Positions 4,451 through 45,001 of a stretch of DNA of 64,000 nt are shown one piece after another. The notes beneath the pieces are model-generated. The model saw nothing but the letters and a program-made list of their open reading frames with translations, did not search any database and was not told where the DNA came from. Origin of the DNA: Raillietiella orientalis (taxonomy: Eukaryota); the NCBI GenBank assembly GCA_036172245.1, contig JAYWIR010000024.1:2294001-2358000 (forward strand), in the 5' to 3' direction. Positions within the stretch are counted from its first letter, which is position 1, and each line of letters opens with the position of its first letter. Position numbers and translations under genes: made by a program.

Positions 4451-5299
4451 ACCATTTCATTCCATTTTTTAAAAACAGATAATGCGTAATTAATTCAAAA
4501 TACATGCAGGATTGATGGAGAATTCAAATTTTGAAAAGGACTTGTCAATCCATTAGGAATCGGAACTCAGAATATAAGAATCAACAAGTGCTAAAGAAAA
4601 TTAAAGTATTTGCGAGGAGTAAGTAGCACATGACTGGTACCAAGCCGAAATGGAATATTTCCTCATATTATAGGAAACGTGCTCTTCTTTGTGTGTGCAC
4701 TGAAAATTAATGAAGAGTGATGCGTTTTTGTTGTCTGCCGTTGTTATGGGTAGAAAAGCTCACAGATGCATAAGGCATAGTGGCGAGCATGCAACGGACA
4801 CACGATCGTGATGATGCACGCGAAAGGCCTTTTCTCGAGGGTGTGAACAAAGAGCACAGAAGAACATGTGGTGCTTCACATTTTCACTGTGTGAGATTCA
4901 AGGAATACGAAGATTCTCAGCGAGAATGAGTTTGTAGTTCTGTGGCACGTGGGGGATCCGGATATCTCACGTGGTGAAATCAGTACGTGAGACATCGCGA
5001 GGCAGACGGGAATCGATCTCCTTCTCGTATTCAGTTGTGTTTGGCAGGTCATCAGGAAGGGGCGGAAAGCAATTACTTTTCAGCATTCCGAACTGATCCG
5101 AAATTTGCGAAGCGGAAGCACCAGGAAGGAGCAAGTTGGCGAATGGTGATTGGCGTGGGTCTCTGACAGGAACAGCAAGGAAAATTTGCTTTTCGAATCC
5201 GTTGCAAGGAGAGGAGTTGGTGAGCGTGGATTCCCGTCTGTTGATCTGTTTCGGTAGGATTCGGTTCAGTTCGAATCTTCCGCAGCAACAATTCCTTAC

Positions 5300-8030
5300 C
5301 CACCGGTGAAATCCCTCTTTGCCCCAGCGCTGCCCTCACTAGGGGAAGCAAGGGACAGTGACAATAAGGGCAAGGTGGGAAGTCGCAGCAAAAAAGAAAC
5401 TTCTGGGTTCGTGGACAACAAGGGAGCTTACGGAAGCTGCGACCCTGAGTGTCCAACCCACAGAACTCACGCACTAGGGCGATTCCTCCAGAAAACCTAA
5501 AGTGGCCCCCAGCGTGATCGAACAACGGCATCGTCCCCTTTAAGTGGCAGGAGTTGGCGTTGCTGGTCTCCCATGCAAAGTACGCCTCCACCATTGGACC
5601 CAGGGGAGTCTGGATGCAAATTGTGACAGGTGCGGAGAGGGAGGACCCCCTCACACCTGCTTTCAGACTGTAATGCCCTTCGACCCCTTTGGAATCTTTT
5701 AGAATCTTAGAATCCTTGGAATCCCGGTGGGTGACCCCAGGAACATTTTGAAACGCCTCTTCGTGCGTGTTACGCTGCCGCCAGCAGCGACCCTCGCAGT
5801 CCTCTGCTGTCTTTGAGGGTTGATGGCGCCCTGAAACGTCACCAGAAGTGGACAGTATGGTAGGTACGCCATCCACTGGTCGAGAATCTTTTTTTGAGAG
5901 CCGCCGCGAAATGACTCTACCTGAGAAATATCCGAAACAAACTTGCCCAGCACCCTGGATAGGATGCAGAGGACGCCTGGCAGCAAACTGCGATCCCTTC
6001 CTCAATCTTTCCTTCCTTTCCCCCCCTCCTCCCCCCGAAAAACTTTCCTGCCCTACTTTTGTTTGTTTCTTGTTGCTTGCGGTGCTCCCATTCCCCTCGC
6101 TGCCGAAACGGATACGTCGCCGCTCTGCGCGCTGGAAATTTGGCAGGTCCAACGTCTTTTTTTTCTTTTTTTTAGGACGTGGTAGCAACAACAGGTATAC
6201 CACAAGAATGTATATTATTTTTATAACAAGTGCCTCGGCCAATCCGGATGAAAAACCATACCGGGAAACCCAGCGCAGCACCGGTAAAGTGGGATAAAAA
6301 CGTTTTAGTGGGTGGTTGTCGCGCGAATTGTCGCGTGGGACCCTGCGGCCTCGAGTGTCTCACCTAAAGGTCTGCCATGCTGGATCCAGCTCCTAGAGAT
6401 TCCTCCAGAAGCTATGGTGTTTCCGGATATATATACGGACCGCTCTACTTTCCCAGTAAAGTGGCAGAAGTTGGCGTCGCTGGTCATGCATTGGGGTCTG
6501 CTATGCAAAGCACCCTTCCATCATTGGATCCGAAATGTGCAAGATGCGGGGAAAGAGAAACTTCCTCAGCTGCTTGTCCATTGTGCTGCCCTCAAACTCT
6601 TCGGGAACCCTTTGCGATCCCTGAGAGCAGCTCCAGAGACGTGATTATACGCTTCTCCGTGAGTGATGCACTGCAGCCAGAGGTGCCATTTGCTGGGCGA
6701 AACTCATGAGAATCGTCGCGAGATGGGTCAATCTAGGAAGTAATAGGGACGAACTTGTTCAGCATCCTGCAGAGGATGAACGGGACGTAGCGGGGCACAT
6801 TGAGATCCCTTCCCAAACCTCCAAACAAGCAGCATTTCTAACTTTTTTTTTTCGTTTTATTTTCCATTTTGTTCTTCTTCGTCCCCCGTCCCTTTGCACC
6901 AAGCTCCAAATGGCAGGTTGAATGGAGCTTCCGCACGCTGTAGGGCCAAGGGTGCTTGCTACCAAATTCGTGTATTTTTTAGAATAAAAGCCACGGAGTA
7001 GCGGGGTGGAAAACCTGGCTGCTAAACCGAGGGATAGGAGCATTCAGTGAGGGCAGCATCGGCAGCGTTTCTTCACTCCGGATCCTGGGATTCTCCAAGC
7101 TCCCTTGCTCGATGCCGCCCTCTTGGCGGGGGTGCCCGTGTCCTCCAAGAGGGACACAAGGCGACAGACCGCGCTGCGGGAGTCTGGGAGACTTCTGGAC
7201 CCAAGGAGACACGGCATTCTGGAATGAGGGTGAAAGATTGTCTGGGGGAGAGAAAAGGGAGAGCCGTCTTTCTTTTGTCTTAGGATGAGAACCAGCGTGT
7301 TGCCAACTGGTTTATTTGTACTAAATAAGCGCCCTGGCGTGACCGTGTGAAAGAAGAAAGGACAGAAAAAGAAGGGGTAGAAGGGAGAAATCCATGCCAG
7401 CAGGGACCCAAAGGTGTGGGCGCGCATTCAGCCACAGGAGGTCCTCCTCCTTAGGTGACGAGACCTGGTGCTCCTCTTGGGGCTGGGGCCTCCCTTGCGA
7501 CGAGTGTCTGCACCAAGTGGCGAGGGGATGGCAGATGTGTGAGGCAGATGCGGGGCAATCGAATCGCTGCGCACCTGCCGACGAACTGCGAAGTCCTCTT
7601 TCGTTCGCGGGAGCGGCTGGCTTCAGCTCTCCTGCATCCCGAGGATTGCGACGGCTGGATTTGCTGCGCCAGCTTCCTCTCGAGAGGGAGAAGTTCTCTC
7701 CCGCCGCGGTGACTGAGACGTTGCGTGCTGCTGTATCCGCAGCAGCATGCTAAGGGCCCCGCTGCTCGCCGAAACCCCCACCAGCGGCAACAGGAACCTA
7801 TCCGCTTAGCAGTCTCTTTGATGAGGAGGACACGCGGGCGAAGAAGTCAGCGAGGAGAACGCCAACGTCTTGCGGAGGCTGTAAGAGAGAAGCAGCAATC
7901 CCGGTCTTCCCATCCCTCACCCACCAACTATTTATTCGTTTGTCCTTCCCCCTTTCCCACCTCACGCTTCAGGCAATTTCTTCAACCGACCTGCGGGCAG
8001 GCGAGCCCTCCCGACTGAACTTTTTTGTTT
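5300..8030 (+). mobile_element. Cluster of Tx1/L1-clade non-LTR retrotransposon 3' fragments (~5300-6290 +, 6300-6920 +, 7040-7250 -, 7380-8030 +)
   Basis: Mutually similar segments (PFKWQELALLV / PVKWQKLASLV; C-x-RCG..E...HL...C zinc knuckle). The plus-strand copies end in a C-rich then T-rich tail. Homologous to 22330-23770 and 59200-63800. Confidence 0.6.
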
Positions 8031-8217
8031 CTCCTTCTTTTTGAGTCACAAGGGACGCAGTTCTTTGTTCAATGTTGCTTCCCATCCTATGGCTGCTGGC
8101 TCCCGCGCCGCCGGGTGGAAGGCCACAGGAAGTCGTGCTTTGGTCGGGAGATCCCCTCCTTCGAGGCACGTTTCCCGAAGGTCCAGAGTCTTTTTTCCGG
8201 GAGCAATGGTTACGGCC

Positions 8218-9124
8218 CTACCAGGAGGAGTCTCTTGGGGAGAAGAAAGTCGGATGAACCGCTCCTTGAGGAGAGTCGGCGGCCGCAGATGTTCTCAGGC
8301 TGATGCCAGGCAGTCCCCCGGCGGAACGTTGTGACTCCTTGGTCCGCACGTCAGCAGTAATCCGGAGTGAGCGCTCCAACCTCAGGGGGATGTCCGGGCG
8401 CAGCCTTCCAGAGGGATTAGGCGCCCTCTTCTTGCGTCCGTAGGAGGCTTCCCGCAAATTCGCGTCGGAGCGGCCGGCGCCGGCGGAGCTGGCCGCCAGG
8501 CACATTCTCTCGGCGCACCTCCGAAGGCAGGGAGTCATGAGGGCGCGGAAGAGAACGACGTCCGAACCTGGAAACCGGAAGGCCGCAAAGTGAAACTCCA
8601 GGTCCTTTCCCCTGGGAGTGGCCATCCTGACGGGCGTCAGGGCAGCTCCCTCGACGGGGCAGCCGTCCTCGTCTATCAGTGGGAACTCCGGCGCGCCAGG
8701 GTCGTCCGAGCCGTCCGTGGCCACCAGGTTGCTCACGAAGATCCCGTAGGGAGCGTCCCTCCGCGCGACCTTGAAGTGGATGCTCAGCAGGTCGCCGACC
8801 CTTGCAAGGGAAACCGGGGCACCCTTCCCGTCTCGGATGAGCATCACGACTCGTGGCGGGGAAACCACAGTCTCCTCTCCTTCCCTTAGTGAGGGAGGAA
8901 ACGGAAGTGGGCACCTGATACCGAGGATCTCCAGGTCATCTCTGGAAGTCTCCCGAGCGACGGCGATGCTCTCGGTGAAGCGACAGCCGGTGACCGCCCG
9001 AGCGCAGTTGTTCTCCAGATAGATCGCTCCTGCTCGTGTCCCTAGGCTCCGGGGCGGACTCTGAGCGTGCCGGTCCATGTCGGACAGCTGGCATACTCCC
9101 GTGCGTTCTTCGTAGTTCGCAGAC
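8218..9124 (-). CDS. Paralog A coding exon 3: end of PAN2, ZP-C, furin site
   Basis: Acceptor cttcccttcAG|G; SANY..CQLSDMDR..YLENNC, VGDLLSIHF, LIDEDGCP, FAAFRFP, TPCLRRC, YGRKKR; stop TAG at 8220-8218. Confidence 0.88.
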
Positions 9125-12100
9125 CTGAAGGGAAGGCGAGGCTGCGTGATGTCCCCAAGATCTGAGTTGTCCCTTGTCCCGCGAGCGAGCAAGTGGGAGA
9201 TCTTTAGCCCCCACGCTCGACCCTCTTCCCTCCCTCCCTTCCTTCAAATCACCGTGACGCTTTTCCCATCTCTGATCAAATGAAGACATTGACTGAACGG
9301 GAGGCGGCAGATCAGAAAAGGCTCTCATGGATACGGCCGGAAGGGGACACTTTTCTGAGGTTCCCCAGTTTTGCCGAGGGAGCAAGAAGGGACCCATTTT
9401 CTCCTCACCAAATGGAGGGGAGAAGGAAATCCCCCAGGGGGATGAGCGCATCTCGATCTCTGGCAGAGGGAGGAGCGCAAGGCAGTATTGTGCGCCCCTC
9501 TGGTCTTCCACGTGCATCCTTATCCTTTTACCTCTCACCTCCCTCCCTTCGTTATTTTCCCTGGAGTTCCTCATGGCAACTAGGAAAGAGAGAGACGTTG
9601 CTTCCGAAAGACGCGCGAAAACCAGGGAACCATATTGGCGCCCAGACCTCCTTCACTACCTACATTGGCCACGATCGCTTCCTTGGGAAGATTTGCCATG
9701 CCTTCCCTCTTTCCAGGAACCTATTCCCATCCCACAGTCAAGTGCCGGAGCGGCCAAGAAGTCACGGACTCCCGAAAGGGAAAGGAGGAGGTACTGAGAC
9801 GTCCGCTGGTACTCCAAAGTGGGGAGCCACCCTGCACTTCTATCCAAAGCACCCAAAAAACAGGGTGGGTCTCCTGCGGACCACACTGAGAAGGTGCTCC
9901 CCTGTAGGAAGATGCTATTCTCGCGCTTTGTATTCTGTTCCAGGTCCTCGGCTCTCCTCCTGCGAGGAGAAATGCGGCTGGAGATATTTCCCCTGAAGAT
10001 CGTCTTTGACGCTCAGCGAGGAGCGGTTCGCGAGCAACATCCCCCCCCCCTCCTTACTGGAGAGTAGGGCGCGCGAAGACCTACTGCTCACCAAGAAGGA
10101 ATCGCGTCTCATACGCGGGCCCTCACATGGCCGGACGTTCTTGGCCTGTGCGCGGGCGCCATGTCTCCAGGTTGCGCACTTCTGGGACAAGCTCTAAACA
10201 AGCCCTGCTGCAACTTTTGCGCATGTGTTCCCCACGAGATGCCATACGCTTCGGGTTTAGTGCATGTACAGTCGGAGCATGTACCGTGAGTTTGCAAGTA
10301 CGTGCGGGCATACCTGCAGACAAACGAAGATTCTCGAAGGCACGCTTCGATGCACCTCTCTGTGGATCGCTCGACATGCGACTTCCTGACGAATCCTTCG
10401 AGTCGATGCCCGGAAACCGCTTCGAACGCCCACTCCCGGTCACAGCTGTACAAACTGTCCAGGCACAGCTTCTGAGCGTAGAGATTAAACCCTGGACGCT
10501 GTGATGGCGATAGGAGATCTGAAAGAGAAGAATTCGGTAGACAGTGCAAGGAAAAGGTCAGCGGAATGTGGAGAAACTTCAGACGAGGTTTGGCGTACAC
10601 ACTTCTGTGTAGACAGCATGCTCATGACGTCCAAGACAAACGCTTAAAAACAAGCATCCTCTTTTTGATCTCTACATGTCAATCAACTGAGTTCCGTCTA
10701 CCCATCCTTGTCTCAGGAACCCCTGAGGTAACTTTTCTGAGAAGACGGATTTTATCTGTGGAAATCAGAGGATAACTGACGGATTGCATCTTCTGCTGGG
10801 TGTCCAGAAACCTCTGGAAAACTGGTTACTCTGACAAGGACCTCCTGGCTGCCGAGCAAGAACGCGAGCAACTTTTTAATCGTGCAAATATACAGCGACT
10901 GCAGCACGGCCAGCTGTTTTTCTTTTGCTAACGCCCTCTTCCTCTTTGAAAGGAGTGATTTGGATAAAAGTTCTTTTATGTGAGAAAACAGAGCTGCCAA
11001 GAGTGGCCTCTCAGAGCTGCATGCCAGCGTGTCACGAGCGGTCCCTTCTCATGTTTTCTTTTGGAAGTTCCTCCTGTCGGCTCTCTGAGAAGCAGAGTAC
11101 GAGAAGGTTGAGGACCTCGTGGTAAGCAAGCGTTCGCAGAACGGAACCGAAGTACAGTGATGCGGGGTGCACTCTGAAGGCCGTGTTTCCCAAAACCTAT
11201 GCAGAACATCGGAACCGAGGAAACGAGGTTTGCGGTCAAAACCTCCTCAAGGAAGATGCACCCTTCATTCACACGGGAGACAGCGAAAGCTCTTTGCACA
11301 GCGAAAAAGCATGCAGACTTCAGAAGGTTTCATCTGCCTTTTCAATCGTTCTGGGGTGTTTCAGCTCTCGTTACGTCTTCCGTCTCTGTTTTCAACCCAG
11401 TTGGGGAAATGTTGCTTCTGTGCTTCCTTTGTCTTAATTTGTCTGTCCATTACATCTGCCACAGGTTCAGTTGGATGCAGCGGATGTTTCTCAGATTTGC
11501 AGATCAAGGAAAACACCGGGAAAAGATTTTTCAAGATCCTTCGAAGGAATAAAAGACCTGATGTCGACAGGAGTCAGGGTGAAAACAGAATGCAACAGAG
11601 AGAAAAAGACGTGAGTCGGCACAGACGCGGAACGCGCACATCAAAGAACAGCCCTGTGCGTATGAACAGAGGCTGCAACCAATCTTCATCCTAATGGGAT
11701 GGGGGAAGCTGCAGCAACTCTAGCCCTTTTCTATCCAGGCATTTCCATGTAGGTTCTCGTTGAAGCGCTTACATGAAGGAGGAAAAAGGAAACCAGTAAG
11801 CCATTTTCGTTGAATTTGAACTCAATTACCGACCAGCCAAAATCAGCAATCGGAATTTTCAAAGCGCCCTCGGCTGGTGAGTTCGCACGTCCGACACCCA
11901 TCGCCCAATGTCGCGCGGATCGTTTCTTGGGCTCCTATGGGAAAAGATCTGGGATATTCGACGAGACGCCTCCCTCTCTGGAAAACCGACGTTCGGTCGA
12001 AGGGGGCGCGATAGAGCCACACGCGATGGTTCGCCAACGGCACGAAGGCGCTTCCTGATGCTAGAAACAGGTGTCCTGAATCCTTCAGTTCTTCATTCCG

Positions 12101-15100
12101 AGCCCAGGTAGACCACAGTGTGGGTGGCGAGCGGCTAAACAGCGGGTGGTGTGGTGCAACCCAGAAGGCTCACCAAAGTGCAAGTGGGAGTGTGACCAGA
12201 CGGCTTTAAGTTTCCCTATGGGTGCAAAGATTTAAGCCATTTATTCCAACACCAAGTAATTTTGAAAGGCAAAGAGCTCAGCATGCGAATGGGATGAAGA
12301 CATTCATTCACCATTCTGCAGTGATTACGCACAGTGGTGCATAATCACTGCAGATACTGCACCAAGGGATTCCTGATGATCGAAGTCAAAGATCTCTGAA
12401 TAAATATGTCTCTGAATCGATCTCTGTGTAGCAGGTAAAAATAGTCCCGAAATGAGAATTTTCACATAAGACCGACGTTCCTGAAAGGACGATCCTTCTG
12501 AAGAAGGAGAAAGTTACATCTCTTTGTTTTGAAGCATTTTCGGAAACTCAGGGTTCAGTCCGGAAGACAACGAGGGACACTCAGATTCAATTTTCGGGTT
12601 TTTGGGTCGAAATCTCGAACGATCAAAAGCACGAAACATCTTGAGGATATGCTCGTTTTGTATATTAGGACACATATTTATGTATAGATTCATGCGCACA
12701 GACATTTTAATATACAAATTAATAATAATTATTAACAAACACGTTGCTGACATAGTCGATAATGTGTACTAATATATTATTAATATATAATGAACATTCT
12801 AAAAATAAACATATGCTAAGATTGTGATCAAGACGTATAATAAATATTTGCTAAATGAATATGTAAATATCGAATTATAAAGAAACAAAAAACAACGGTA
12901 ACAACTAAAAGTAGTGTGTGTGTCTGTGTGTGTGGGGGGGAGCAAAGGAATTGAACAAAAATAAAAGAAATTTTTCGTTTCATTTGCCCATCATTTCCAT
13001 CATCCAATCAATAAAATCAGCATTCTCAGTAACAGAATCCTGAATGAATTTTCGGATTTCGGCGTTCGGGAATTTGATCATCACCGCCGATTTTTCTTTG
13101 AACGAGGAAGACGTTTGGATCAACCGAAATAAACTCGAAGGAAGTTGAGAAACTGCCTTGCATTTCGAGCCACCATTACATGTGTGGCATGCGTGATTTC
13201 CGTGTTGGATGATCCGCACATCTTTCAGGCTTGAAACGAGTAAACTATAGAAAAGATCCACTTATCCAGATTCAAGGTCAAGTTGGATTCCGTTAGCCCT
13301 GGAAGCTGCCCTTTCCGCTGTTTCCCTGTCTCATGAATCATTGGAATTGTTAGAGAACCCAACTGATTCCATCTCTTAAGAACAAGGAGTCATGAGAACT
13401 GAGAGAAGCCACGGATAATGCTTCATGTATAACCGAAAGTAGATCACCTACCCATGCCGAGCAGCAGTGGGGCTGAAGGCATGCGGATCTTCCCAAAGAT
13501 GCCCTCCATCAAAGCGATGCTAATGGGTGAGAAAGAAAGGAGAAACACCCAGAGACCCAGAAGTTGAGACAAGTGGAAGGCTGCGTTGGCGGCCGTGTGG
13601 CTACGGCCTCCGCGTGTGGCACCAAGCGTTACAAGTTCGATTGTGTTGCGATATCTCTTTCCTCATATGGGATTTACCCATCCGAGGAAGTAAGAGACCA
13701 AATGAGTGCGCCGTGAGTTTCGAGTTGGCCCTCAAGATGACGCTGGTTGTCACATTGGGGTGCAGCACTCGAAAAAACCGGAAACCGGATGCCCCCGTTG
13801 ACTGGCCGGGATTTGGAAGTTGACCCTTTGGGGTCCTTCCAGGAGTCAAGGAACCTTCGGGATTCACTTCCGGTTGTGAAAATGGATCTGTCTTCCCCCT
13901 CGGAGGAACCCTCTATCGAGTACCATGGAGCTGGTTGGTTTGATTCTTTCCCAGATTGTCAGGAGCGCTGTGCACCCTTCAGGGTTCTCTTTTCAGAATA
14001 GTAAACGAGGAGCGGTTCCTTTCGGGGTTCTCTTAGGAGACAACTAAAGCGAGGGTTTCTTGTGCTCGGGGTCCCCTACCAAGCGTAAGAGGAACGGATT
14101 CCGGAGCCACCCTCGGGTGACGTGGACAGTGTTAAAGAGCTTCGTGAGCCTTAGGCGCACTGTTCTTCAGTACGTAGCGAACCAAGGGTTAGAGAAGTGG
14201 AAGTCCTGAAAGGGTTATGCGGTCAGTGTCAGATTCGCTATTTCGGAGGAAAGAAAGCGGGGGATTTGAATCGAGTATTTGAAGATCAGTTTCTTATGGT
14301 TTTCCGTTCTTATTCTCCAGACCAAAATATCTGCTCTTTCTCGGGTGTCTCAGGTCGAGCCTCCCGGCTAAAGTTTTTGAGAGATCGCATCTTTTTCGAG
14401 TTCTTTATGCGGAAGGGGAAAGTGGCAGGCCTCCCATTGAAGCAGAGAAAAGAAGAACCAGTTAACTTTCAAGAAATGGGATCTGAATCCGAAATATTTC
14501 TAGAGTTGAGTCCCGAATTAATTCAAGATGAAAAGGGGGAAGGGGGAAAGGAAAATTGGAGACACCCAATGTATCGTGAGGATCAACTTATTGAAGAACT
14601 GATTCTACCGGGAAAATACCAAGCACGATTCGGTTAGCATCGGTCGTCATGGCACGTCTCTACAGATGAGCCTGTGGTTGGTCATGAAGAGCGTTCATCC
14701 TGGAATCGAAGAAGACCAACAAATATCGCCTCTGCTTCCTTACGAAAAGAAAGTGATGCCCTTGTGCTAACTGCACCAGAAACCAAAAGCTAAGAGCATT
14801 TCCAGAGGTCTAAGGCTTCAGCTCTGGGTGGCAGCTTCAGGAGAACATGGCCACAGCACAAAGAGGAGAAGCAAGACAAGGAATGGGGGAGGAGGAGGCG
14901 TTCTTGTGTGAGAAGCAAGAAGGAAGTTCTGCATCTCTTAACAACGTTTGGGGTCAACTAAAATTCATACATCATTCGAGTGGAGCCGAGCAAGAGCTTG
15001 CCGAGGGAAGAAAACATTCCGGCCACGAAATAGTGCCTCGCAGAGACAAGAAAACGTTTCGATGCTACAGTTTCCGCAGATGACGTTCTGTGATTTCAAA

Positions 15101-16584
15101 CCATGAGTTCCGCGTTTCCAGAGCTCAGTGGGAGAGGAATTTGCTGTTTTTCTGCCAAGATCGACGAGCTCCAGAATAGGCAGAAGAAATGTACCCTTCC
15201 GCCTCCTGAAGATCGGAGAAGAAACAAAGTATCTTGATCGTCCCTCAGAGAGCTATTGGCATCCATTTCTTCAAAGCACGTTTTTTCTTCGAGGGAATCT
15301 TCTGACGTGAATTCGTGTAATAACGGTCCAGTGCGAGAAGCTGCAAGGGTAGTTTATCAGAGTCCCCGAGTCGTCTTCCGTGCTTCCAAGAGAGGACATC
15401 CAGTTCTTCGATCGGATGCCGCTTCTCCCCCATGCCAGCCACTCGAAATCTTTTCCGCAATTTCCTGATTCGCAACTCTGACAGCCAAAGATAGGCCAGC
15501 AAGGAAGATGTGTCCAATGTGGGATAACCTCCCGGGGCGCCTAACTTCGCTTCTCAACACGGACACCTGCATGAAAAATTTAATTTCGAGTCTTCCCGAT
15601 GTCTTCAAAACTGCATTTGCGAGGGATCCTCACCTGAACTGCAATCTGGGGGACCTACAGAAATCTGGCACATCTTCCAGTCTTCTGAAGACAAGAAGAC
15701 TCGATAGATTCCTGGAAGAAGGGCTAATTGAAAGTCAACTGATCCTCTTTCGTAGGTTGAGATCTTCACAGACACGGTACAAGACGTGTCCAGTGTTTCT
15801 GATTCCGTGAGATTCCACCTTCTCTCTTTACCTATCAGCCTGCCCCTGTTGCTGTGGCTGCACATCTACCGAATTGGCAAATTGGTCCGGCAATTGTCCC
15901 AGAAACTTCAGGATTGCGCAATGCTTCTTACGATCAAGATCTGCTATTGAACAGGGCACTCTTACGAGGAAGATCATCAGCCAAGTCAACTCTTTGGTGA
16001 TGAATGAGAGTGCCATGGTTCAGTTAGTCTTCTGGATCGCCGGCTGCTTAGAAACCAAACGCGCGTTCTCTGCTCGACGAGGACGAGAAGTGATGAAAAT
16101 GAACCGCATGAGGAGCGCCTGGAGTCTCAGGTTTTCCGACTCCCGAGTGCAGCTCCGGAGCCAAAAAGACAGAAAACAAAAAACCGCTCATGGAAGCTCT
16201 AGTGCTGCCATGACGTGCAGCAACAGTGGTCACAACCGGTAGGCTCTGCTGCTCTTCGCAACAACGCGCGTTTCCGACGAATGCTTCAGCGAACAAACCT
16301 GAATTCTCCCTGAAGCTCGACTTGTGTAGGACGCAAGACCCCGCCTCGAAATTCACAGCAGCACAACCCGTTGTCCTCCTGCAAATGGCCAGGCATTCCG
16401 GAAGAGACAAAACTCCCCAGTTCGATCCAACGACGTCGTCGGTAAACGAATACTGCGGACCGACTTCCAACAGGAAGGTCACAGTGGAATTCTGGGGGCA
16501 TTGGCACTCGGTGAGGGCGATCACGTGGAAGAGCAAAACAGCGAACGTGATCCGAGGAGTTTCCCGCAGAGCGTGTCTTTTCAT
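8218..16584 (-). CDS. PAN/Apple + ZP-family secreted protein (neyo/nyobe-like paralog A): signal peptide, 2 PAN domains, ZP-C only, RKKR site, no TM; ~465 aa
   Basis: Exons 16584-16299, 10518-10314 and 9124-8218 splice in frame via GT-AG sites (phases 1 and 2; 1398 nt) with no stops or frameshifts. Intron positions and the 205-bp middle exon match paralog B. Confidence 0.85.
9640..9960 (+). mobile_element. Tx1-like fragment in intron 2 of paralog A
   Basis: Nucleotide similarity of ~9820-9940 to 22980-23100 of the Tx1 copy. Confidence 0.4.
10314..10518 (-). CDS. Paralog A coding exon 2 (PAN1 end / PAN2)
   Basis: Acceptor ttcttctctttcAG, donor GTATGC; DLLSPSQRPGFNLYAQKLCL..CDREWAFEAVSGHRL..CIEACLRESSFVCR; 205 bp. 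Confidence 0.9.
10700..11700 (-). mobile_element. Degenerate Ty3/Gypsy RT-RNase H remnant
   Basis: Minus-strand KEKQLAV..IKKLLAFLLGSQEVLV resembles the RNase H E.LA..KF..YL.G motif, with weak RT motifs upstream. Confidence 0.35.
13530..14110 (+). repeat. Copy of an unidentified dispersed, formerly coding repeat (also ~19500-20190 +, 48130-48630 +, 54750-55430 -, weaker 29130-29400 and 38830-39170)
   Basis: Shared sequence and peptides: GAALEKTGNRMPPLT / GAALAKSGNQMPPLT; CQERCAPFRVLF / CKKRYAPIKALF; FAWQQ in the 19.7 kb and 55.1 kb copies. Confidence 0.6.
14150..16030 (-). mobile_element. Degenerate Utopia/NeSL-like non-LTR RT region in intron 1 of paralog A
   Basis: Decayed motifs in the expected order on the minus strand: IQ.LYR, WMPIAL (NWRPIAL), EG..H.F, YIG (YLG.P), GGLD. 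Confidence 0.45.
16299..16584 (-). CDS. Paralog A first coding exon: signal peptide + PAN1
   Basis: MKRHALRETPRITFAVLLFHVIALTECQC..TFLLE..ECLAICRRTTGCAAVNFEAGSCVL; donor CAG|GTTTGT, phase 1 as in paralog B. Confidence 0.88.
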
Positions 16585-17069
16585 TCTAGTTGCCAGTGGA
16601 GGCGGACAGTTTTCTGGAACAACAGAGAGTGCATCAGCCCGCGTGTTCTGCTGACGGGAATCGATCCCATTCACACAATCCGTTCGGCATATTTCTTTCC
16701 GCGAAGATAGAAAGCTCTCCTGTTGAAGAAGTCAAAGCCCGATTTATCCTAGGTGATCCTAAGATACACCCAAACCATTGATCCGAGTACCCCAAGGATT
16801 TACAAACTCAGCGGAGGTTGGTTTGGAGCCATCAGAGTCTCCGGTCGCAACGTAGGTTTGTTCCGGAAGAGACGATCTCAAAAACCACCGACAACCAGAA
16901 CGACCACGAGGGCACCCAGGGCGATATTGGATTCTGGATGGAGAATCTTCTCGAATTTGAAGATGGATTCCGGAGTGAAACAGCGTCCGCCCGGCTTTAG
17001 CTCGAAGGAACCCTCGAAGGAACCTCATTCTCCTCGAAGCATTGGTACATTTCTTGGCTCTCCTCCTGC

Positions 17070-17377
17070 ACTGTCTCGGTGAACGGCACACGGTCCATCC
17101 TTCAGCCGCTTCACCTCCTTGATGGGGTCTCTAGGGACGGACCGCGAGAGGGTGGCTGGGTGGCCAAATTCGACCGCCTGAGTCTGGGATTCCGCTGTGA
17201 CGGTCGTCGTAGTCTCCATCCTCGCCCCGCCGACGGAGTTGGCGACGCTGACTGCGCTTCTCGGAATCCTCAACCACCCCCGCCTCCTTGACGAGGAGAG
17301 TGTTGCCGATTATTTCGATGCGATCGTCGGGATGCGTGAGGACCTCCTTCCTGCTCCTCTCGTCGACGCGATACCAC
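17070..17377 (-). pseudogene. Dscam: Dscam exon fragment (C-half Ig3 + N-half Ig4), degenerate
   Basis: WYRVDERSRKEVLTHPDDRIEIIGNTLLVKEAGVVEDSEK (frameshift) VANSVGGARMETTTTVTA..QTQAVEFGHPATL..DPIKEVKRLKDG matches recalled arthropod Dscam WYKF..TLIIKDAVVEDSGKYLCVVNNSVGGESVETVLTVTA..QTVDFGRPA..NPIKTVSWMKDG. It is preceded by a cgcAG| acceptor; the Ig Cys/Trp residues are lost. Confidence 0.8.
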
Positions 17378-35437: not shown

Positions 35438-35693
35438 ATGATTTTAGTAGTGATGCTTTTCTTATCACGCATCAATCTGAGCAAAAGCGAATGTGCTCCG
35501 AATTCAACCTCCGTTTTCCTGCTGGAAAGTGGCTACATGTACGCGTCCCAGGAAGACATCATAGGTTCGCATCCAGGGATGCTGGATATAGCAGAATGTC
35601 TGGAGAGCTGCCAAAAAGCACCGGCCTGCGCATCGGTTAATTATGAAACGGGATTATGCATGCTGTACAAGACAAACTCCAATGATCATCCAG
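35438..35693 (+). CDS. Paralog B first coding exon: signal peptide + PAN1
   Basis: aaaaccATG; MILVVMLFLS..ECAPNSTSVFLLESGY..ECLESCQKAPACASVNYETGLCMLY; donor CAG|GTTTGC. An upstream acceptor at ~35383 implies a 5'UTR intron. Confidence 0.9.
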
Positions 35694-38600: not shown

Positions 38601-41600
38601 GAATATCTTAACAAAAGGGGACTCCATGAATCCTTTCCTTGCTTCTGAAGGAGAAAAATGTGCCTTTTAAGTATAGGAGTAGAAAAGGATGTGAATTCTC
38701 GAGAATATCTCTCAAGGTTTGTAAGTGTTGTGAATCCAAAGGGAACAACTCGTTCGCTCCTGCTGAAGTAGCAGGAAGCGTGTGATTCCTGAATTCGAAG
38801 CAGAAGAATTTGCAAGGAACCGGATTTTCAAAAGACATTTCTCGAAGAAAAATGAAATTCTTGCCGGAGCAGCCAAGAAGGGATAAAAAGAAGGCTCAGC
38901 GCTTTTCTGTGAGCTGCACCGACCACGGAGGGACTCCTTTCAATGGGAAGAGGTCGGAATATTTCGTGCCTTCCAGCAATCTTTTCATTCCTCATCATGC
39001 TCTGATTCAAACGGGAGTTTCAGTGCCAGCTTCAAGGAGGTTCCAAAGTTTCGGCTCCCCCGTTTCTGGGGGGTACCTCCTTTGGGTTATCCGGGAGCGA
39101 CATCCAGACTACCACTTTCGCCGTGGCAAGCAAAGTGTCGGGGGTATTCCTAGGCGTGGGTTCTTCCCCTGTTGTTGCGCCTTTGCAGTTCGGCAAAGCA
39201 AAGTCTCTTACTTGAAATTCAAAGAGCTACAGAATGCTGCGTGCCATTCTCAAGCAGCTTGTCTGGAGCTCTCCTTTGCAGTGACCGTGGCGTTTGCTGT
39301 CCGAAGTCATTTGAAAACCCATTCACCTGATTCCGGAGCAGCAACACGGGTCGGCTTTCGTCTGACTTGAGATGTGAATCGGTGGATCAGATCTGGTCGC
39401 GAAGCAGTGGCCATAAAGATCCCGAAAGATCATAAAAAGTGCATATGTAAGTGTGTGCCTATGTATATATATGTGGCATACATGCGTGCATATATATATA
39501 CATACATACGGTATATATATATCATCTGTATACATATGTGTGATATACACGAATATAGTTCATAATATGTTTATTATATCTGCTGATATCTAAATTTTCA
39601 TATAAATTAATCTACAACTTCATAGATACAATAAAAATTTTAAAGATAAACCTATACGCTCATTGTATATAGATTTATATATAGTAAACCTATCATGAGT
39701 TATATCAATGCATACCATCAAATTATCAGCTTTCATGATGTCTATGCAACGTGCGAGTGTCTTCAAACCCGTTGTAAAGATGGTCGAGAGTTTTAGAGAG
39801 AAGCCTTGCAGAAAGAAGGTCGCAGGTCGCACGTCCTGTGGTTGCAAGAATGTGACCTATGGGAGCTGTGTGGAGGGCGAAACAGTCGGGTATCTATCTA
39901 TTCTTCAAGTTGAACGGCACGATTTCCTGGTGACACGTGGGAGGCTTCAGCGGAGGGCGTTACAGCCCATTCGGTGAAGTTGCTAGGGAGAAACATGGCA
40001 AGCAGGAGAAGAGGCTTCTTCTCGAAGGAAAACTTGAGGCAACGACCAAGCTGTTCCAGCAAGGTGCAAATCTTCGTCTAACAGTGTACGGGTTGATTAG
40101 CGTACAGTTCTTCACTTTATAAGTCTGGAGAACTCCTTCCTCGTGTGAAGGATTGAAGAAGGACCCGAAAAGTGGAAATCACGGGGAATGGTGGGCCTCG
40201 ATCGGCAGTGGCCGACGAGTCTCGAGTTTCACGAGTGCGGACCCCTTGCAGCAGCACCCCAGTTTTGTTCGCACTTTTTGGATGCTGCTTATCGGCAAAT
40301 ATACGAGCAGAATTTCTTTTGCTCAGAGTGCCTCGCCAAGACGAATGAGCTTTTTCTTGAGTTGTACTGCTTTTGCTCGTTGATGAAGCGACGTTCAAAA
40401 GGGTTTGCATGCACCTCGGGGCAACATTTCCCCTCCCACCAGCTTCGAGCCGACAGAAATTGAAAGTAGAGAGAGGGAAACGCGAAAAGAATACTTTGCG
40501 GCACGCAAAGGTTCGATGAAAGCCGAACCTTTTTAGGCATCCGATGGTGTATCCGTGGTCATTTCCAAAGATGGACGAGGAAGGAAGCTTCGCTGGCAGT
40601 CCACTCTTGGCTATATTTGCTCTTTATTTCTTTTTCGAAAAAAGGACAGGCTGTTCACGAGATCCCTTTCGTTCAACTAGCTGTTCCTGATGTCACTCTA
40701 AAATCATTCCAGATCTCCTCGTCGTGTCTGAATACCCTATCTTCACACTGTACGCTCAGAAAATATGCTTGGATGAGTCCACGAGCTGCGACAGAGCTTG
40801 GATGTTCGAAAGAGTATCTGGCCATTTCCTCGCTGGAGTGATACGCAAAGAGTTCCCTGCTGAGTCCAAAGAAGAGTGCATGGAGATGTGCCTGAAGGAA
40901 ACGGAATTCATTTGCAGGTGGAGTGATTTTTTCTTTTTGTTTTTCCTTGTGCTCTCCCATTTGGGCATCTGTGAATCGATTTATCTAACGAACGGCACTC
41001 GGCGCGCTTTCCTTTTCTTAAGTAAAGAGATCAGGACAGGTGGATGGGTAAACGAATTTGTAAGGAGCAAAAGCTCCTGAACTTCCTGCCGGTTTCATCA
41101 AGCGAATCTCCTCCAGCTGACCTCTCTCCAGTTGCTCGCCTCTGGAGATGGTACATGCAGTCCGATGCGTGTTGTCCTCAGAGGCTATCCTTCTTTCTGT
41201 GAAGCAAGGGAAGCACCCAAAGGGAATACGTGCTCCGAGGAAGGGCTCCCATACCCGAAGACCTGCGGTTTTTGAACCCGCAGCACGACGGTTTGGCTGC
41301 AAATCCAATTGAAGAGGGAAGCACCGTTCTTTCATGCAGCTGCATACGTGAGGGCTCGCGCGAAGAGCTCCTGTGCATCCTTTGTCGATGGGCAATTTCG
41401 ATTCCTCATCCGAGAGAAAGGCACAATGATGTTCACAGTCTGCAAGGAACTCGGATCACACTTGGACGAAATTCGTGGCAGCTTCTCAGCGTCATTAGAT
41501 GGGGAAAATTTGAAGCGCAGCACGGTGACTTCAACGGCTGAACGCATGCTGTTAGGAAGGATTCGCAATGCACGTTTCGTGAAGGCGACCTTCTACCCTG

Positions 41601-44600
41601 GAAGTCCCTCAGAAGACTCTTTCATCTTCATCGGAATAGTTGCAGTGTGTTTATTGAGACGCTGATCTTTGATGATTGTGACCGGAATGACCCAGCTTGG
41701 TGGGTCTTGAGAAGGGCACACTCCATTCTTGTGAACCTGATGTCTTTACGTCTTTCTTCTCTGGGAAGCTGCCGAGTCGACCTGTCCGATCTGAAGGTCT
41801 CGGAGAGAAGACAGGAAATTGCTTGCATGTGGACCTTGCGGATTTGAGTGCACGGCAGGTGGTTCGGAATCTCAACTCAGGTGGACAATCCACCAATCGG
41901 ATGCGAAACGCTACCGCTAAACATTATTCTGTATTCTATCCCGCTCGTCAGTGATTTTGAAAGGCAATGTAGAAACGGTTTAGTCTTCGAAGGATTTCAG
42001 CAAGAAGAAAGAGAGTACTAAGAAAGAATTGAACCAAACTCATGTTCCCCGTACGGAATCAGGTGCGATACGGATAGGGGAGAGTTAATCTACCAATTTC
42101 ATGTGGATCTTCTGGCTCGAATTGTGATCAGAGAGAAGCCTTTTTATCAACTGAGGCTGGTGAGCATTGACCATCAAACTGGAAAAGGGGTACATGCTAG
42201 GAGGAATCTCTTGACTCATCTGGCCCCCACAGGAACAAGACGCCAATCGAGAAAAGCGAGGACATTTGAAGGGTCAAAGAAGATTGTGAGCACCTACCAA
42301 CCATGGGCTCCAAAGTCCCTGTGCGACTATGGTTATCCAGGAATCCTTACGACATAAGCACGGACGTCACGGAGAGCAAGAGGGAATCCTTTGTCTCGGT
42401 GGCAAAACGATGAATGTGGAGACGAGGAGAGACGCTTTGGTATGAGATCATTCCAGGTCACATCGCATCCCTCGTGTCTGTTGCTTGCAGCAGCATTCTT
42501 CGAAAAAAAAAAAAAAAGAAATTCTCCGTTGGAAGATGTTCTGCTCACTGCCAGGATCAGATCTCATCCAGCATCTCTCGCACCGCAAAGGGGAACTTAA
42601 ACGATAAGCACGCAGTCAGAATCCTTAAATGCTTGAAGAAGATTGAGCATTTAAGGATTGCCACTTGCCTTTTTATGGTAACAGCCTTCTTGGAAAAGGA
42701 AGCTCAATGAATGAGGACTCCAGACTGCTGCCTGGGGCAACTCGATAACATGTTCGAGAGACTTTCTTTCAGAAGAATGAAGAAAATAAGAAAAGAAAAT
42801 CTCTCTAGCTGGCCTAGTCAAGCCCTCCTCCTCAGAGAAAGAATCGCTAGTTGTATTTCGGAATATCCTGCTGAAGTGGAGCACACCGGAGAAGATGTGC
42901 TTCGTCTGGAAAACCGAGTTACATATCTGCTTTCACGTACGTTTTCCCTCTCACTTCAGATCAGAGAACCATTTGTCCTCGGATTGAGCAAGAGCTCACG
43001 TTCAGGAGCTTTTCCTTCGTGCTGGTGTGTGCTCTTCTCGATTCCCTCTTTGTCCGAATTAGTTCGGTTCGTTCCTTTTGGGAAAGACTCATAGGATGCA
43101 AACAGCATCAGTTGCACGGAGGCTTCCTGTGATCCGTTCACTTTGCTGAAAGGCGATCCGTGTTGGGAAGTCATTGTTTTTTCATGGGCTTCAAGGTGGA
43201 GGGCAGGATGGCTTTGCTCAAAGGAGACACTGTGGACATCCAAGAAACAAGAAAAGGTCTTGGACTTTTCTTTTCTTCGTGATTCTCTGCTCGATCGAGG
43301 TGATGGGTTCGTTTTGTTCGTCGACGAATCCATCCAGGTTTTGTTAGAACATCGGTTTGCATTCCTGATGTAACGATTCCTATTGCTCGTTGAGTGACGT
43401 GTCCTTTTTTATGATGACTGGATTCTTATTGCGGATGGATTCTTTCCAGATCGGCGAACTTCAACAGCAAGGATCAGTCGTGCAGCATCTCGGATAAGGA
43501 TCGTCACACGCACAAGTCTTTCGTCGGACTCGAAAAAGGAGAAGACATCGAATACCTGGAGAACAACTGCGTCAGGGAGCCTGTGAAGAAGTGCCGCTTC
43601 CAGAATATAATCGGGAAGATCATAAAGACTGTGGACTCGGTGTTCACTAACGTGGACAGCTTGGACCTGTGCCACCGACTCTGCATGACGGCACCTTACA
43701 GATGCCACTCGTTCGACTACAACGACACGGACTTGAACACCTGCAGGATCAGCCACCACTCGGAGGCCACGTTGCTGCATCTGAAGCAGCCCTACCTGGA
43801 TATCCCGGAATCCTCAACGTACGAGCTAGGGCCTTGCTACAACGTGAGCGTCCACTGCCATGACACGAAGATGCTCGTGAAGGTGCTGAGCAGCAAACTG
43901 TTCAACGGGAAGATCTATGCACTCCCCAACCCGGAAGGATGCGCCGTGGACGTGGACCAAAGCCTGGAGTTCGAGCTGCACATGCCGTACGGCAGCCCGG
44001 ACTGCAACGTGAAGCAGGAGCTGGAAGGGCTGTTCAGCAACGAGATCGTCATTCAGCACCACGACGTCGTCCTGACCGACGAAGACCTGCAGCTCATCGT
44101 GAAGTGCCACTACCAGCTCTTCAACACGACCGTCACCAACGGCATGGGTCTGAAGGTGAGAGGGGTCGCTGCCACCCTGTCCGAGGAGAAGTCGGCGCTG
44201 CACTCGCCGAACGTGCTCATGAAGATCTACGACCTGAAGAACAATGAGGTATCTGCAGCCGAAGTGGGTGACCCTCTGCTGGTGCGGTTCGAGATCCAGG
44301 ACGAGGGTACTCCGTACGAGATCTTCATCAGGGACATGACAGCGGTGGACGGCCTGGACTCGAGAGAGATCCACCTCATCGACGAGCACGGATGCCCCGT
44401 GGATTCGATCGTAAGCCCGCTCAAGCGGTCCTCTGGCAGCCCAAGGGATCTCGAGACGCACTTGACGGCCTTCAAGTTTCCCGCTACGGATGTGGTCCAG
44501 TTGCGCGCTCTAGTGACCCCATGCTTTCCCAAGTGCAAGCCAGCGATGTGTCAAGTGCCAAGCCATCCTGAAGGCACAGAAATCTCTCTAGGCAGGAGAA

Positions 44601-45001
44601 GGAGGAACCCTCCGGAAGAAAAGAAATCCAGCGAATTCCTGGTCGTGAATTCGATCCGCATCACGGATGGGCAGAACCCTCCGAAGGGAGAATCTGCCCT
44701 GGACCCGGCTGCTGCCATAAGAGAAGGAGAAAGGAGGAATTTTGAGGAAAAGGCCCGCAAGTACGACGGCGGCGCAGATAGCGCGGAGGTCCGGCAGTCC
44801 TTCGCGTCCACGGAAGGAGCGTGCATGGGGCTCGCGGTCCTGGCAGCGGGAGGAGTGGCTCTCCTGGTCGCCGAGTCGGTCCTCGTCCTGCTGACTTACT
44901 GCCTCTGTGTGAGAAGAAGTAGGCTGATCCAGGAGCGGCAGAGCAAGCAGCTCCTCTCCCGGATCGTACACTCGAATTTCTCAGGAATGCCCGGGAGGTA
45001 G
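35438..45001 (+). CDS. PAN/Apple x3 + ZP-domain transmembrane protein (neyo/nyobe-like paralog B), ~670 aa
   Basis: Exons 35438-35693, 40713-40917 and 43450-45001 splice in frame (2013 nt, GT-AG). Encodes a signal peptide, three PAN domains, complete ZP-N + ZP-C, GRRRR furin site, TM helix (LAVLAAGGVALLVAESVLVLLTYCLCV) and a short tail. Confidence 0.93.
37119..38270. repeat. 133-bp inverted repeat (37119-37251 / 38138-38270)
   Basis: The arms are reverse complements with 5 mismatches by manual alignment; spacer 886 bp; no TSD seen. Confidence 0.92.
37119..38600. mobile_element. Rearranged hAT transposase remnant
   Basis: Minus strand 38560->38138 has AYFFHVAA (A.F.HC.AH) and a TRW-like motif. 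Plus strand ~37815-37910 has VTTTAA.RSLS..LVK (P.TTA..ERSFS dimerisation motif). Confidence 0.5.
39440..39560. repeat. (TA)/(CA)-type low-complexity tract
   Basis: Alternating purine-pyrimidine run: tatgtatatatatgtggcatacatgcgtgcatatatatatacatacatac.. Confidence 0.7.
39740..40260 (+). mobile_element. RTE-like non-LTR 3' remnant
   Basis: VTYGSC...ILQVERHDFL (L.YG.E.W...L...E...LR) and a terminal W...R motif. Confidence 0.33.
40713..40917 (+). CDS. Paralog B coding exon 2
   Basis: Acceptor cattccAG|; DLLVVSEYPIFTLYAQKICL..CDRAWMFERVSGH..CMEMCLKETEFICR; donor AG|GTGGAG; 205 bp. Confidence 0.92.
41100..41600 (-). mobile_element. Possible piggyBac transposase remnant
   Basis: LRF..ND..K, LPIDK (SIDE) and AKPSCCGFK (KP.K.G.K) occur in order across frameshifts. 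Confidence 0.3.
43450..45001 (+). CDS. Paralog B coding exon 3: PAN2 end, PAN3, ZP, furin site, TM
   Basis: Acceptor ttctttccAG|A; SANF..YLENNC..IIKTVDSV..CHSFDY..CRISHHS..CYNVSVHC..IVIQHHD..VGDPL..LIDEHGCP..AFKFP..TPCFPKC..GRRRR..TM; TAG at 44999-45001. Confidence 0.95.

What the first reader, a model, noticed from the sequence alone, without database searches (positions are those of the whole stretch)
8218..9124. Intact ZP paralog with an in-frame loss of PAN3 and ZP-N: a ZP-C-only protein
Seen: between YLENNC..CRF and the ZP-C entry (PPRVVM vs SPNVLM), paralog A has 39 residues where paralog B has ~201. About 160 aa (PAN3 and essentially all of ZP-N) are missing inside one contiguous exon, and the frame, ZP-C cysteines, RKKR and the post-furin hydrophobic patch are all kept. 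The junction looks like the PAN3-start Cys fused to the last ZP-N Cys strand (VTGCRF..DLEILG vs IVKCHY..GLKVRG). Established: ZP-N is the polymerising half and can occur alone, whereas isolated ZP-C is unusual. Inference: this may be a non-polymerising, chain-capping or dominant-negative modulator of its neighbouring canonical paralog in cuticle/apical ECM.
Basis: partly seen in the sequence, partly recalled or inferred. Interest (0 to 1): 0.8.

Follow-up and report, generated by a model that had tools for sequence, protein, structure and literature searches.

The report
PAN–ZP paralog lacking its ZP-N half
One of two neighbouring cuticle-matrix (PAN + zona pellucida) genes has cleanly lost the polymerising ZP-N half, one PAN domain and its membrane anchor. 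The rest still looks selectively maintained, a kind of "ZP-C-only" protein so far described only in nematodes.

Summary
Gene A (minus strand, exons 16584-16299, 10518-10314, 9124-8218) and gene B (plus strand, exons 35438-35693, 40713-40917, 43450-45001) are head-to-head paralogs of the neyo/nyobe/NOAH-type PAN+ZP family. They share the same three-exon structure.

Between CRF and the ZP-C entry, A has 39 residues where B has 201. PAN3, ZP-N and most of the interdomain linker are gone. No trace of them lies elsewhere in the window.

A's 465 codons are open and its splice sites are canonical. AlphaFold models its ZP-C at pLDDT 91-97, with the post-furin strand docked. At family-conserved positions in the retained domains A keeps 60 of 83, against 65 of 83 for B. 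In the junction remnant it keeps only 7 of 21. This suggests an old deletion followed by continued constraint.

No ortholog with this architecture was found, and no sequencing run was listed, so expression and assembly could not be checked.

Standalone ZP-C proteins (nematodes) and ZPc-driven function (LET-653) are already published, so this is a new variant of a known kind. The capping or dominant-negative idea remains untested.

The parts
16299..16584 (-). Gene A exon 1: ATG (16584-16582), signal-peptide-like N-terminus (MKRHALRETPRITFAVLLFHVIAL...), PAN1; donor GT at 16298-16297, phase 1
   Evidence: Sequence read. Pfam PAN_1 E 2e-05, 24.8 bits against cut-off 21.4. tblastn HSPs from 8 of 8 homologs. 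The signal peptide is judged by eye; no predictor was run.
10314..10518 (-). Gene A exon 2 (205 nt, same length as B exon 2): end of PAN1 and first half of PAN2; acceptor ...ttctctttcAG, donor GT at 10313-10312, phase 2
   Evidence: Pfam PAN_1 profile positions 1-37. A keeps 22 of 29 conserved columns against B's 24.
8218..9124 (-). Gene A exon 3, which is the finding: PAN2 second half, unalignable spacer, ZP-C, RKKR, EHP-like strand, hydrophilic tail, TAG stop at 8220-8218
9004..9123 (-). PAN2 second half (exon-3 residues 1-40, ends ...YLENNC)
   Evidence: Pfam PAN_1 profile 39-76. 12 of 13 conserved columns kept.
8881..8976 (-). Junction spacer (exon-3 residues 50-81) standing where PAN3, ZP-N and most of the interdomain linker (about 194 residues in B) should be; holds one Cys (C71) and follows C47
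   Evidence: Profile homology ends at residue 49 and resumes at 82. AlphaFold pLDDT is below 50 for residues 40-76. No remnant in any frame.
8440..8880 (-). ZP-C domain (exon-3 residues 82-228) with four conserved cysteines
   Evidence: Pfam PF00100 E 3.3e-09. Family profile 5.3e-42. AlphaFold pLDDT 91-97. Foldseek top hits are ZP-C domains: 5bup E 5.2e-06, 4ajv, 3qw9, 6tqk_B.
8425..8436 (-). RKKR consensus furin-type cleavage site (residues 230-233)
   Evidence: Read. It aligns with RRRR of B and with the homologs' sites.
8356..8385 (-). EHP-like beta strand (residues 247-256, ...LRLERSLRITAD...)
   Evidence: Strand E247-256 in the model; the 10-residue blocks covering it average pLDDT 80 and 88. 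It aligns with LLVVQSIRITD of the family. Only 4 of 11 conserved columns in the CFCS+EHP segment are kept.
7931..7936 (-). AATAAA, a possible polyadenylation signal about 280 nt after the stop
   Evidence: Pattern scan. This is a motif only and no evidence of use.
35438..35693 (+). Gene B exon 1: ATG, signal-peptide-like start, PAN1
   Evidence: Pfam PAN_1 E 1.3e-06.
40713..40917 (+). Gene B exon 2 (205 nt): end of PAN1 and first half of PAN2
   Evidence: Pfam PAN_1 E 4.4e-06.
43450..45001 (+). Gene B exon 3: PAN2 second half, PAN3, ZP-N, linker, ZP-C, RRRR, EHP, TM helix, short tail. This is the canonical paralog (670 aa in all).

Best explanation
What it is: gene A is a real, long-maintained paralog of the neighbouring canonical PAN-PAN-PAN-ZP-TM gene B. 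B belongs to the neyo/nyobe/morpheyus/trynity and NOAH-1/2 type of apical-ECM protein. The duplication probably happened within this lineage.

What was lost: an old in-frame loss inside the last exon removed PAN3, ZP-N and most of the interdomain linker. The transmembrane anchor and cytoplasmic tail are gone as well.

The predicted product (465 aa): signal peptide, PAN1, PAN2, a disordered spacer of about 32 aa, ZP-C, an RKKR furin site, an EHP-like strand and a short hydrophilic tail.

How it most likely works (inference):
1. It is secreted as a soluble protein.
2. It is cut at RKKR.
3. It cannot build a filament of its own, because it lacks the ZP-N domain and the linker.
4. It enters the apical matrix through its ZP-C domain, with the two PAN domains giving further matrix contacts. 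This is how C. elegans LET-653 localises and functions through its ZPc alone, without a membrane anchor.

Shown here: the architecture, the open frame, the fold and the pattern of conservation.
Inferred: secretion, cleavage, matrix binding, and any effect on B.
For: Gene integrity:
- 465 codons are open across three exons, with GT/AG at every junction.
- A and B have the same intron positions and phases and an identical 205-nt exon 2.
- GC3 is 0.70-0.73, against intron GC of 0.47-0.56; B's GC3 is 0.77.

Conservation:
- All PAN1, PAN2 and ZP-C cysteines are kept.
- At columns at least 80% conserved in 59 homologs, A keeps 60 of 83 in the PAN2 tail plus ZP-C, against 65 of 83 for B.
- In the junction remnant A keeps only 7 of 21, against 16 of 21 for B. 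Fisher p is 0.0017 for A and 0.78 for B. The remnant has lost constraint while the retained domains have not, as expected if the deletion is old and the rest stayed under selection.
- Exon 1: A keeps 15 and B 18 of 34. Exon 2: A keeps 22 and B 24 of 29.
- End branches under LG+G4 are 2.02 for A and 1.74 for B, so A is not running away from B.

Fold:
- AlphaFold gives ZP-C pLDDT 91-97. The post-furin strand 247-256 is modelled as a strand (block means 80 and 88).
- Foldseek finds ZP-C domains first.

Precedent:
- LET-653 has PAN domains, a ZP domain and no TM. Its ZPc is sufficient for localisation and rescue (PMC7665627).
- Nematode standalone ZP-C proteins arose by ZP-N loss and evolved under stabilising selection (PMC7456536).
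Against: - No expression data could be obtained.
- No ortholog exists in 1.84 billion representatives. The best hit is 44% identical and the highest identity listed is 47%. Conservation of this architecture across species is therefore unshown.
- Among the hits that could be judged, 0 of 49 lack ZP-N.
- A's amino-acid make-up is skewed (chi-square p<0.001). GC2 is 0.53-0.56 against 0.39 in B. Both fit relaxed constraint under GC pressure.
- The CFCS+EHP segment keeps only 4 of 11 conserved columns, and the tail keeps 0 of 4.
- Placing remnant residues in alignment columns is uncertain, which could inflate the contrast.
- dN/dS between A and B is saturated.
- The signal peptide was judged by eye only.
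Confidence: 0.5

Rival explanations
1. Decaying duplicate. A is a non-functional or dying copy. The internal deletion and the loss of the TM anchor disabled it, and the open frame simply has not yet been broken.
For: - Three modules needed by canonical family members are missing.
- No ortholog was found, and none of the 49 relatives that could be judged shares the architecture.
- Composition is skewed towards GC-rich codons.
- The EHP segment and tail are poorly conserved.
Against: - No stop or frameshift in 465 codons, and all four splice junctions are canonical.
- The retained domains are almost as conserved as in B: 60 against 65 of 83.
- The remnant is strongly degraded (7 of 21). This points to a long time since the deletion, during which a neutral sequence should have been broken. 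That last step is my inference, not a computed test.
- No TM remnant lies in any frame after the stop, so the TM loss is not a fresh nonsense mutation.
Confidence: 0.28
2. Chain-capping or dominant-negative modulator. After furin cleavage and EHP release, A's ZP-C accepts the linker strand of a B-type subunit. Having no ZP-N or linker of its own, A then ends the filament or thins the matrix.
For: - ZP-C, the furin site and an EHP-like strand are kept, while ZP-N and the linker are lost.
- A sits next to its canonical paralog.
- Uromodulin filament structures involve both ZPn and ZPc contacting the linkers of other monomers (as summarised in PMC7665627 section 12). The detail of strand replacement is recalled, not read here.
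- Weadick proposes 'free-agent regulators' for standalone ZP-C (PMC7456536).
Against: - Nothing here shows contact between A and B.
- It is not known that neyo-type proteins form uromodulin-like filaments.
- A and B share only 39% identity in ZP-C, so hetero-assembly is not a given.
- LET-653 shows that a ZPc can act without any filament role.
Confidence: 0.15
3. Assembly or haplotype artefact. The true locus holds a full PAN3+ZP-N segment that was collapsed or dropped.
For: No reads were available to check the junction.
Against: - No direct repeat lies in 7000-17500, and neither of the two inverted pairs found touches the junction.
- The join is in frame.
- The flanks of the join are themselves strongly diverged rather than cleanly truncated.
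- The separate loss of the TM anchor shows independent remodelling.
Confidence: 0.05

Closest known systems
Drosophila Neyo / Nyobe / Morpheyus / Trynity and C. elegans NOAH-1/2 (PAN + ZP apical-ECM proteins)
   Same: - B's best database hits are this family: 345 proteins at E<=0.001, the best 7.9e-130, several named neyo, neo or nyo.
- A hits the same proteins.
- Signal peptide, PAN1, PAN2, ZP-C with four cysteines, a tetrabasic site and an EHP-like strand are shared.
- The family is described as SP + PAN + ZP + CFCS + TMD in PMC5769628 (passages).
   Different: A lacks PAN3, ZP-N, most of the linker and the TM helix. 0 of 49 relatives that could be judged lack ZP-N.
C. elegans LET-653 (PAN-PAN-ZP, no membrane anchor; functions via its ZPc)
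   Same: [quoted passage not shown]
- The ZPc alone localises and rescues; the C-terminal tail is needed for secretion (PMC7665627).
- A looks like a natural LET-653 lacking ZPn.
   Different: - LET-653 still has a ZPn-like domain and an 8-cysteine ZPc; A has none and four.
- Orthology is not shown. An Atlas feature match to a nematode LET-653-like cluster scored 0.85, which is a lead only.
Nematode standalone ZP-C proteins (T01D1.8, F46G11.6, CUTL-19 subfamilies; Weadick 2020)
   Same: A ZP-C without a ZP-N, derived from a full ZP module by ZP-N loss, with the signal peptide retained (PMC7456536).
   Different: - Those subfamilies mostly lack R/K cleavage sites. They end before the EHP strand or carry GPI signals. 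They are conserved across nematode clades.
- A keeps RKKR and an EHP-like strand and two PAN domains. It has no known ortholog and lies in a neyo-type family whose nearest relatives are arthropod.
Uromodulin / ZP1-3 type polymerising ZP modules
   Same: The ZP-C fold. Foldseek hits include 6tqk_B, 8bqu_B and 28yj_B.
   Different: There is no ZP-N and no recognisable linker, so the elements contributed by each filament subunit are absent.

Membership tests
ZP module protein (ZP-N + linker + ZP-C) | ZP-N domain with its four cysteines | tested here: not met
   No CUT_N or ZP-N hit in Pfam. The family ZP-N profile finds nothing in A at E<=10 but finds B at 5.3e-48. No remnant in other frames or elsewhere in the window.
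ZP module protein (ZP-N + linker + ZP-C) | ZP-C domain | tested here: met
   PF00100 E 3.3e-09, above the cut-off. Profile 5.3e-42. pLDDT 91-97. Foldseek finds ZP-C structures first.
ZP module protein (ZP-N + linker + ZP-C) | Consensus furin cleavage site followed by an external hydrophobic patch | tested here: inconclusive
   RKKR is present and aligned with the family site. A strand at 247-256 is modelled. Only 4 of 11 conserved columns are kept, and the patch is partly charged (LRLERSLRI). Cleavage cannot be tested here.
ZP module protein (ZP-N + linker + ZP-C) | C-terminal TM helix or GPI signal | tested here: not met
   No hydrophobic window in any minus-strand frame between 8500 and 7797; the nearest lies at 7796, about 420 nt past the stop. 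The B control was found at 44810. Alignment A1 shows the same absence.
neyo/nyobe/NOAH-type PAN+ZP family | Sequence homology and shared gene structure | tested here: met
   tblastn from 8 of 8 homologs hits all three exons. Intron positions and phases are the same as in B. phmmer best hit 2.3e-31.
neyo/nyobe/NOAH-type PAN+ZP family | Third PAN domain directly before the ZP module | tested here: not met
   Only CRF, the first-Cys motif, remains. Homology stops at residue 49. Pfam finds PAN3 in B but not in A.
Standalone ZP-C proteins (Weadick 2020) | ZP-C present, ZP-N absent, signal peptide retained | tested here: met
   As above. The signal peptide was judged by eye, with no predictor.
Standalone ZP-C proteins (Weadick 2020) | Architecture conserved among species under purifying selection | not testable with these tools
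   No ortholog in the libraries. No genome of this or a sister species is held.
LET-653-like (PAN-PAN-ZP, soluble, ZPc-driven) | Orthology to LET-653; 8-cysteine ZPc | tested here: not met
   A's ZP-C has four cysteines. Its nearest relatives are neyo-type arthropod proteins. The likeness is one of architecture, not of descent.

The most novel reading that the evidence does not exclude
Gene A is a dedicated, genetically encoded terminator of neyo-type ZP filaments. It would be a soluble subunit that accepts a neighbour's linker strand in its furin-activated ZP-C but cannot extend the chain. It would set filament length or mesh size in the cuticle-forming apical matrix, paired head-to-head with the filament-forming gene it regulates.
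Probability: 0.15. Interest if true: 0.75.

Novelty: new variant of a known kind. Interest (0 to 1): 0.42.

Why it matters
Whether a ZP-C domain can act without its ZP-N partner is a live question in apical-matrix biology. Published cases are the nematode standalone ZP-C families and the engineered LET-653(ZPc) fragment. A full-text search for 'standalone ZP-C' returned 8 papers; I saw titles and the start of each abstract only and checked none for cases outside nematodes.

This locus would add a natural case in a neyo/NOAH-type family whose closest relatives are arthropod. It keeps the furin site and EHP strand that the nematode cases mostly lack, and it keeps two PAN domains. It also sits beside its full-length paralog. 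That pairing offers a clean comparison for asking what ZP-C, the cleavage switch and the PAN domains do on their own.

If it is only a decaying duplicate, it is of little interest.

Tried and rejected
- Whole genome: none is held.
- Sequencing runs for exon 3: none was listed and no RNA holder was listed. Expression, splice junctions and the assembly at the junction could not be checked, and read laying was not used.
- The search for homologous proteins with A exon 3 at near lengths: 3140 candidates, none at E<=0.001. The word filter was probably limiting; the full phmmer scan replaced it.
- A-like architecture among relatives. Pfam was run on 20 of the 150 listed hits, chosen for length and match position. 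None shows PAN followed directly by ZP-C: nine carry CUT_N, and most of the rest are short, N-terminally cut fragments. Profiles were then run on all 150. 49 have at least 130 aa before ZP-C, and 0 of these lack ZP-N. The other 101 are too short at the N-terminus to judge.
- Missing PAN3/ZP-N elsewhere in the window. tblastn of the missing segment from B and 6 homologs gave best E 0.16 outside B exon 3. Three frames across 8800-9060 gave only negative scores. 64 minus-strand ORFs in A's introns gave no Pfam hit.
- Tree. A and B are both long branches in an unresolved polytomy outside the pancrustacean clade (61 rows). After dropping P0213, P0217 and P0199, an A+B clade is not rejected (p-AU 0.459) but not shown either (58 rows).
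- dN/dS of A against B: dS is undefined for exons 1 and 2 and above 1 for the PAN2 tail and ZP-C. It is saturated and not usable.
- Complex prediction, mature B ZP module with mature A ZP-C: no verdict. It counts neither for nor against binding.
- ESM Atlas: the best scores are 0.83-0.86, below 0.9, so leads only.
- The search of earlier findings by place and by sequence: nothing was held.
- Homologs of the S8 pro-domain ORF: none found.

Full report
THE LOCUS

The window is eukaryotic. GC ranges from 0.32 to 0.59, introns are multi-kilobase, and no whole genome is held.

The plus-strand ORF (gene B) finds 345 proteins at E<=0.001. The best is 7.9e-130, and identities among the 120 listed hits are 39-51%. 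All the named ones are arthropod, and several are labelled neyo, neo, nyo or cuticlin-1.

tblastn of eight full-length homologs lays out two genes with the same three-exon plan. Reading the splice sites gives these models:
- Gene A, minus strand: 16584-16299, 10518-10314, 9124-8218.
- Gene B, plus strand: 35438-35693, 40713-40917, 43450-45001.

Intron positions and phases are the same in both genes, and exon 2 is 205 nt in both. The genes lie head to head, about 18.9 kb apart. The finding's coordinates are exactly exon 3 of A.

Between CRF and the entry to ZP-C, A has 39 residues and B has 201.

Pfam finds the following in A:
- PAN1 in exon 1.
- The two halves of PAN2, split over exons 2 and 3 (profile positions 1-37 and 39-76).
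- ZP-C (PF00100, E 3.3e-09, above the cut-off).
- No third PAN and no ZP-N.

B has PAN3 and CUT_N (the latter at 25.5 bits, just under its 27-bit cut-off). A ZP-N profile built from the family finds B at 5.3e-48 and nothing in A at E<=10. The ZP-C profile finds A at 6.4e-39.

Profile alignment places the edges of homology at residue 49 (CRF) and residue 82 (envelope 75). About 194 family positions are therefore replaced by about 32 unalignable residues.

The missing part is nowhere else:
- Best tblastn E outside B exon 3 is 0.16.
- Nothing appears in the other frames at the junction.
- No Pfam hit in 64 ORFs inside A's introns.
- No direct repeats lie in 7000-17500, and neither of the two inverted pairs found touches the junction.

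A ends 68 residues after RKKR, about where B's transmembrane helix begins. No hydrophobic stretch follows in any frame until 7796, about 420 nt past the stop, whereas the control scan finds B's helix. A has therefore lost PAN3, ZP-N, most of the linker, the membrane anchor and the cytoplasmic tail.

The external hydrophobic patch is kept only in outline (LRLERSLRITAD against the family's LLVVQSIRITD). In the cleavage-site-plus-patch segment, 4 of 11 conserved columns are kept.

IS IT A GENE OR A WRECK?

For a working gene:
- The spliced frame has 465 codons with no stop, and all junctions are GT/AG.
- GC3 (0.70-0.73) stands above intron GC (0.47-0.56), as in B.
- All cysteines of PAN1, PAN2 and ZP-C are in place.
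- At columns at least 80% conserved among 59 homologs, A keeps 60 of 83 in the PAN2 tail plus ZP-C, against 65 of 83 for B. In the junction remnant it keeps 7 of 21, against 16 of 21 for B. Fisher p is 0.0017 for A and 0.78 for B.
- Exons 1 and 2 show A 15 and B 18 of 34, and A 22 and B 24 of 29.
- An earlier, smaller count gave A 59 and B 70 of 88 invariant columns.
- The remnant has lost constraint while the retained domains have not. I read this as an old deletion followed by continued purifying selection. It is an inference, and it depends partly on how the remnant is aligned.
- AlphaFold2 with a 61-row alignment models ZP-C at pLDDT 91-97. The post-furin strand 247-256 is a strand (block means 80 and 88). 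The spacer (residues 40-76) and the tail (266-301) are below 50.
- Foldseek finds ZP-C domains first: ZP2 5bup at E 5.2e-06, betaglycan, and uromodulin filament chains.

Against a working gene:
- No ortholog. The best of 349 library hits is 44% identical and the highest identity listed is 47%. The architecture is unique among those that could be judged, with 0 of 49 lacking ZP-N.
- A's composition is skewed and its GC2 is high.
- dN/dS against B is saturated.
- No sequencing run was listed.

RELATIONSHIPS

A and B are both long branches. They sit in an unresolved polytomy with chelicerate and mite sequences, outside the pancrustacean clade. Names for some long-branch neighbours come: Halotydeus, Panonychus and Lepeophtheirus.

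An A+B clade is neither rejected nor shown (p-AU 0.459). End branches are 2.02 for A and 1.74 for B.

A and B share states that differ from the family consensus. Examples are NST and FLLE at the start of PAN1 (printed), E to R at alignment column 324 and T to V at column 602. This suggests a duplication within this lineage.

MECHANISM

The product should be a secreted, soluble PAN-PAN-spacer-ZP-C protein with a furin switch. It lacks ZP-N and the linker, so it cannot contribute what filament subunits contribute. Uromodulin structures show both ZPn and ZPc contacting the linkers of other monomers, as summarised in PMC7665627 section 12.

The best-supported model is LET-653-like: matrix incorporation through ZP-C, with the PAN domains adding contacts. 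LET-653 has PAN domains, no membrane anchor and a cleaved C-terminus. Its ZPc alone localises and rescues (PMC7665627, passages and section 12 read).

Weadick proposed 'free-agent regulators' for standalone ZP-C (PMC7456536, passages read).

KNOWN OR NEW?

Standalone ZP-C proteins that arose by ZP-N loss and were kept under stabilising selection are published for nematodes (PMC7456536, abstract and passages). That paper notes they might exist in other phyla.

A full-text search for 'standalone ZP-C' returned 8 papers. I saw titles and the start of each abstract only, and I checked none of them for cases outside nematodes. Supplements of these papers were not read.

A differs from the nematode cases in keeping RKKR, an EHP-like strand and two PAN domains. 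It also belongs to the neyo/NOAH-type family, described in PMC5769628 (passages). It is a new variant of a known kind.

VERDICT

My odds:
- 0.50: a maintained, secreted, non-polymerising ZP-C protein acting in a LET-653-like way.
- 0.15: a filament capper.
- 0.28: a decaying duplicate.
- 0.05: an artefact.

Interest is moderate, because nothing on expression or orthologs could be obtained.

Noticed in passing
window 21277-21663 (-): An ORF of 129 aa matches the Peptidase S8 pro-domain of furin/kexin-type proprotein convertases (PF16470, E 1.4e-12) and ends in an FNDP...WCLN motif. It lies between two genes whose products carry furin-type sites. No S8 catalytic domain was found among the minus-strand ORFs scanned (35 aa and longer below 16.3 kb, 40 aa and longer from 16.7 to 23.8 kb), nor among ORFs of 110 aa or more in the whole window. 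It may be an isolated fragment or a first exon of a gene that runs off the window.
   Followed up: partly
window 649-1326 (-): Three short ORFs match consecutive parts of GrpE (PF01025, E 1e-08 to 3.4e-06). This is a small-exon GrpE-type co-chaperone gene in the first 4 kb, where GC is 0.32-0.33 against 0.47-0.59 further on. The sharp change in composition near 4 kb is unexplained.
   Followed up: no
window 5073-6359 (-) and 62016-62546 (+): Two long ORFs without Pfam hits share a similar stretch when read by eye (...PLFDHAGGHFRFSGGI... and ...PLFQHAGGHFTSSEGI...). This suggests a repeated element near both ends of the window.
   Followed up: no
gene A CDS (16584-8218, -): A's protein is rich in residues with GC-rich codons. 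GC2 is 0.53-0.56 against 0.39 in B exon 3, and its composition is flagged as unlike the family's (p<0.001). The local DNA (8-10 kb) is the most GC-rich 2-kb bin of the window, at 0.594.
   Followed up: partly
gene A exon 3, residues C47 and C71 (about 8983-8985 and 8911-8913, -): The partners of the first PAN3 cysteine (C47) were deleted. One further cysteine (C71) sits 24 residues on, in the disordered spacer, so the count of cysteines in exon 3 stays even (8). Whether the two pair is unknown; the model is not confident there.
   Followed up: no
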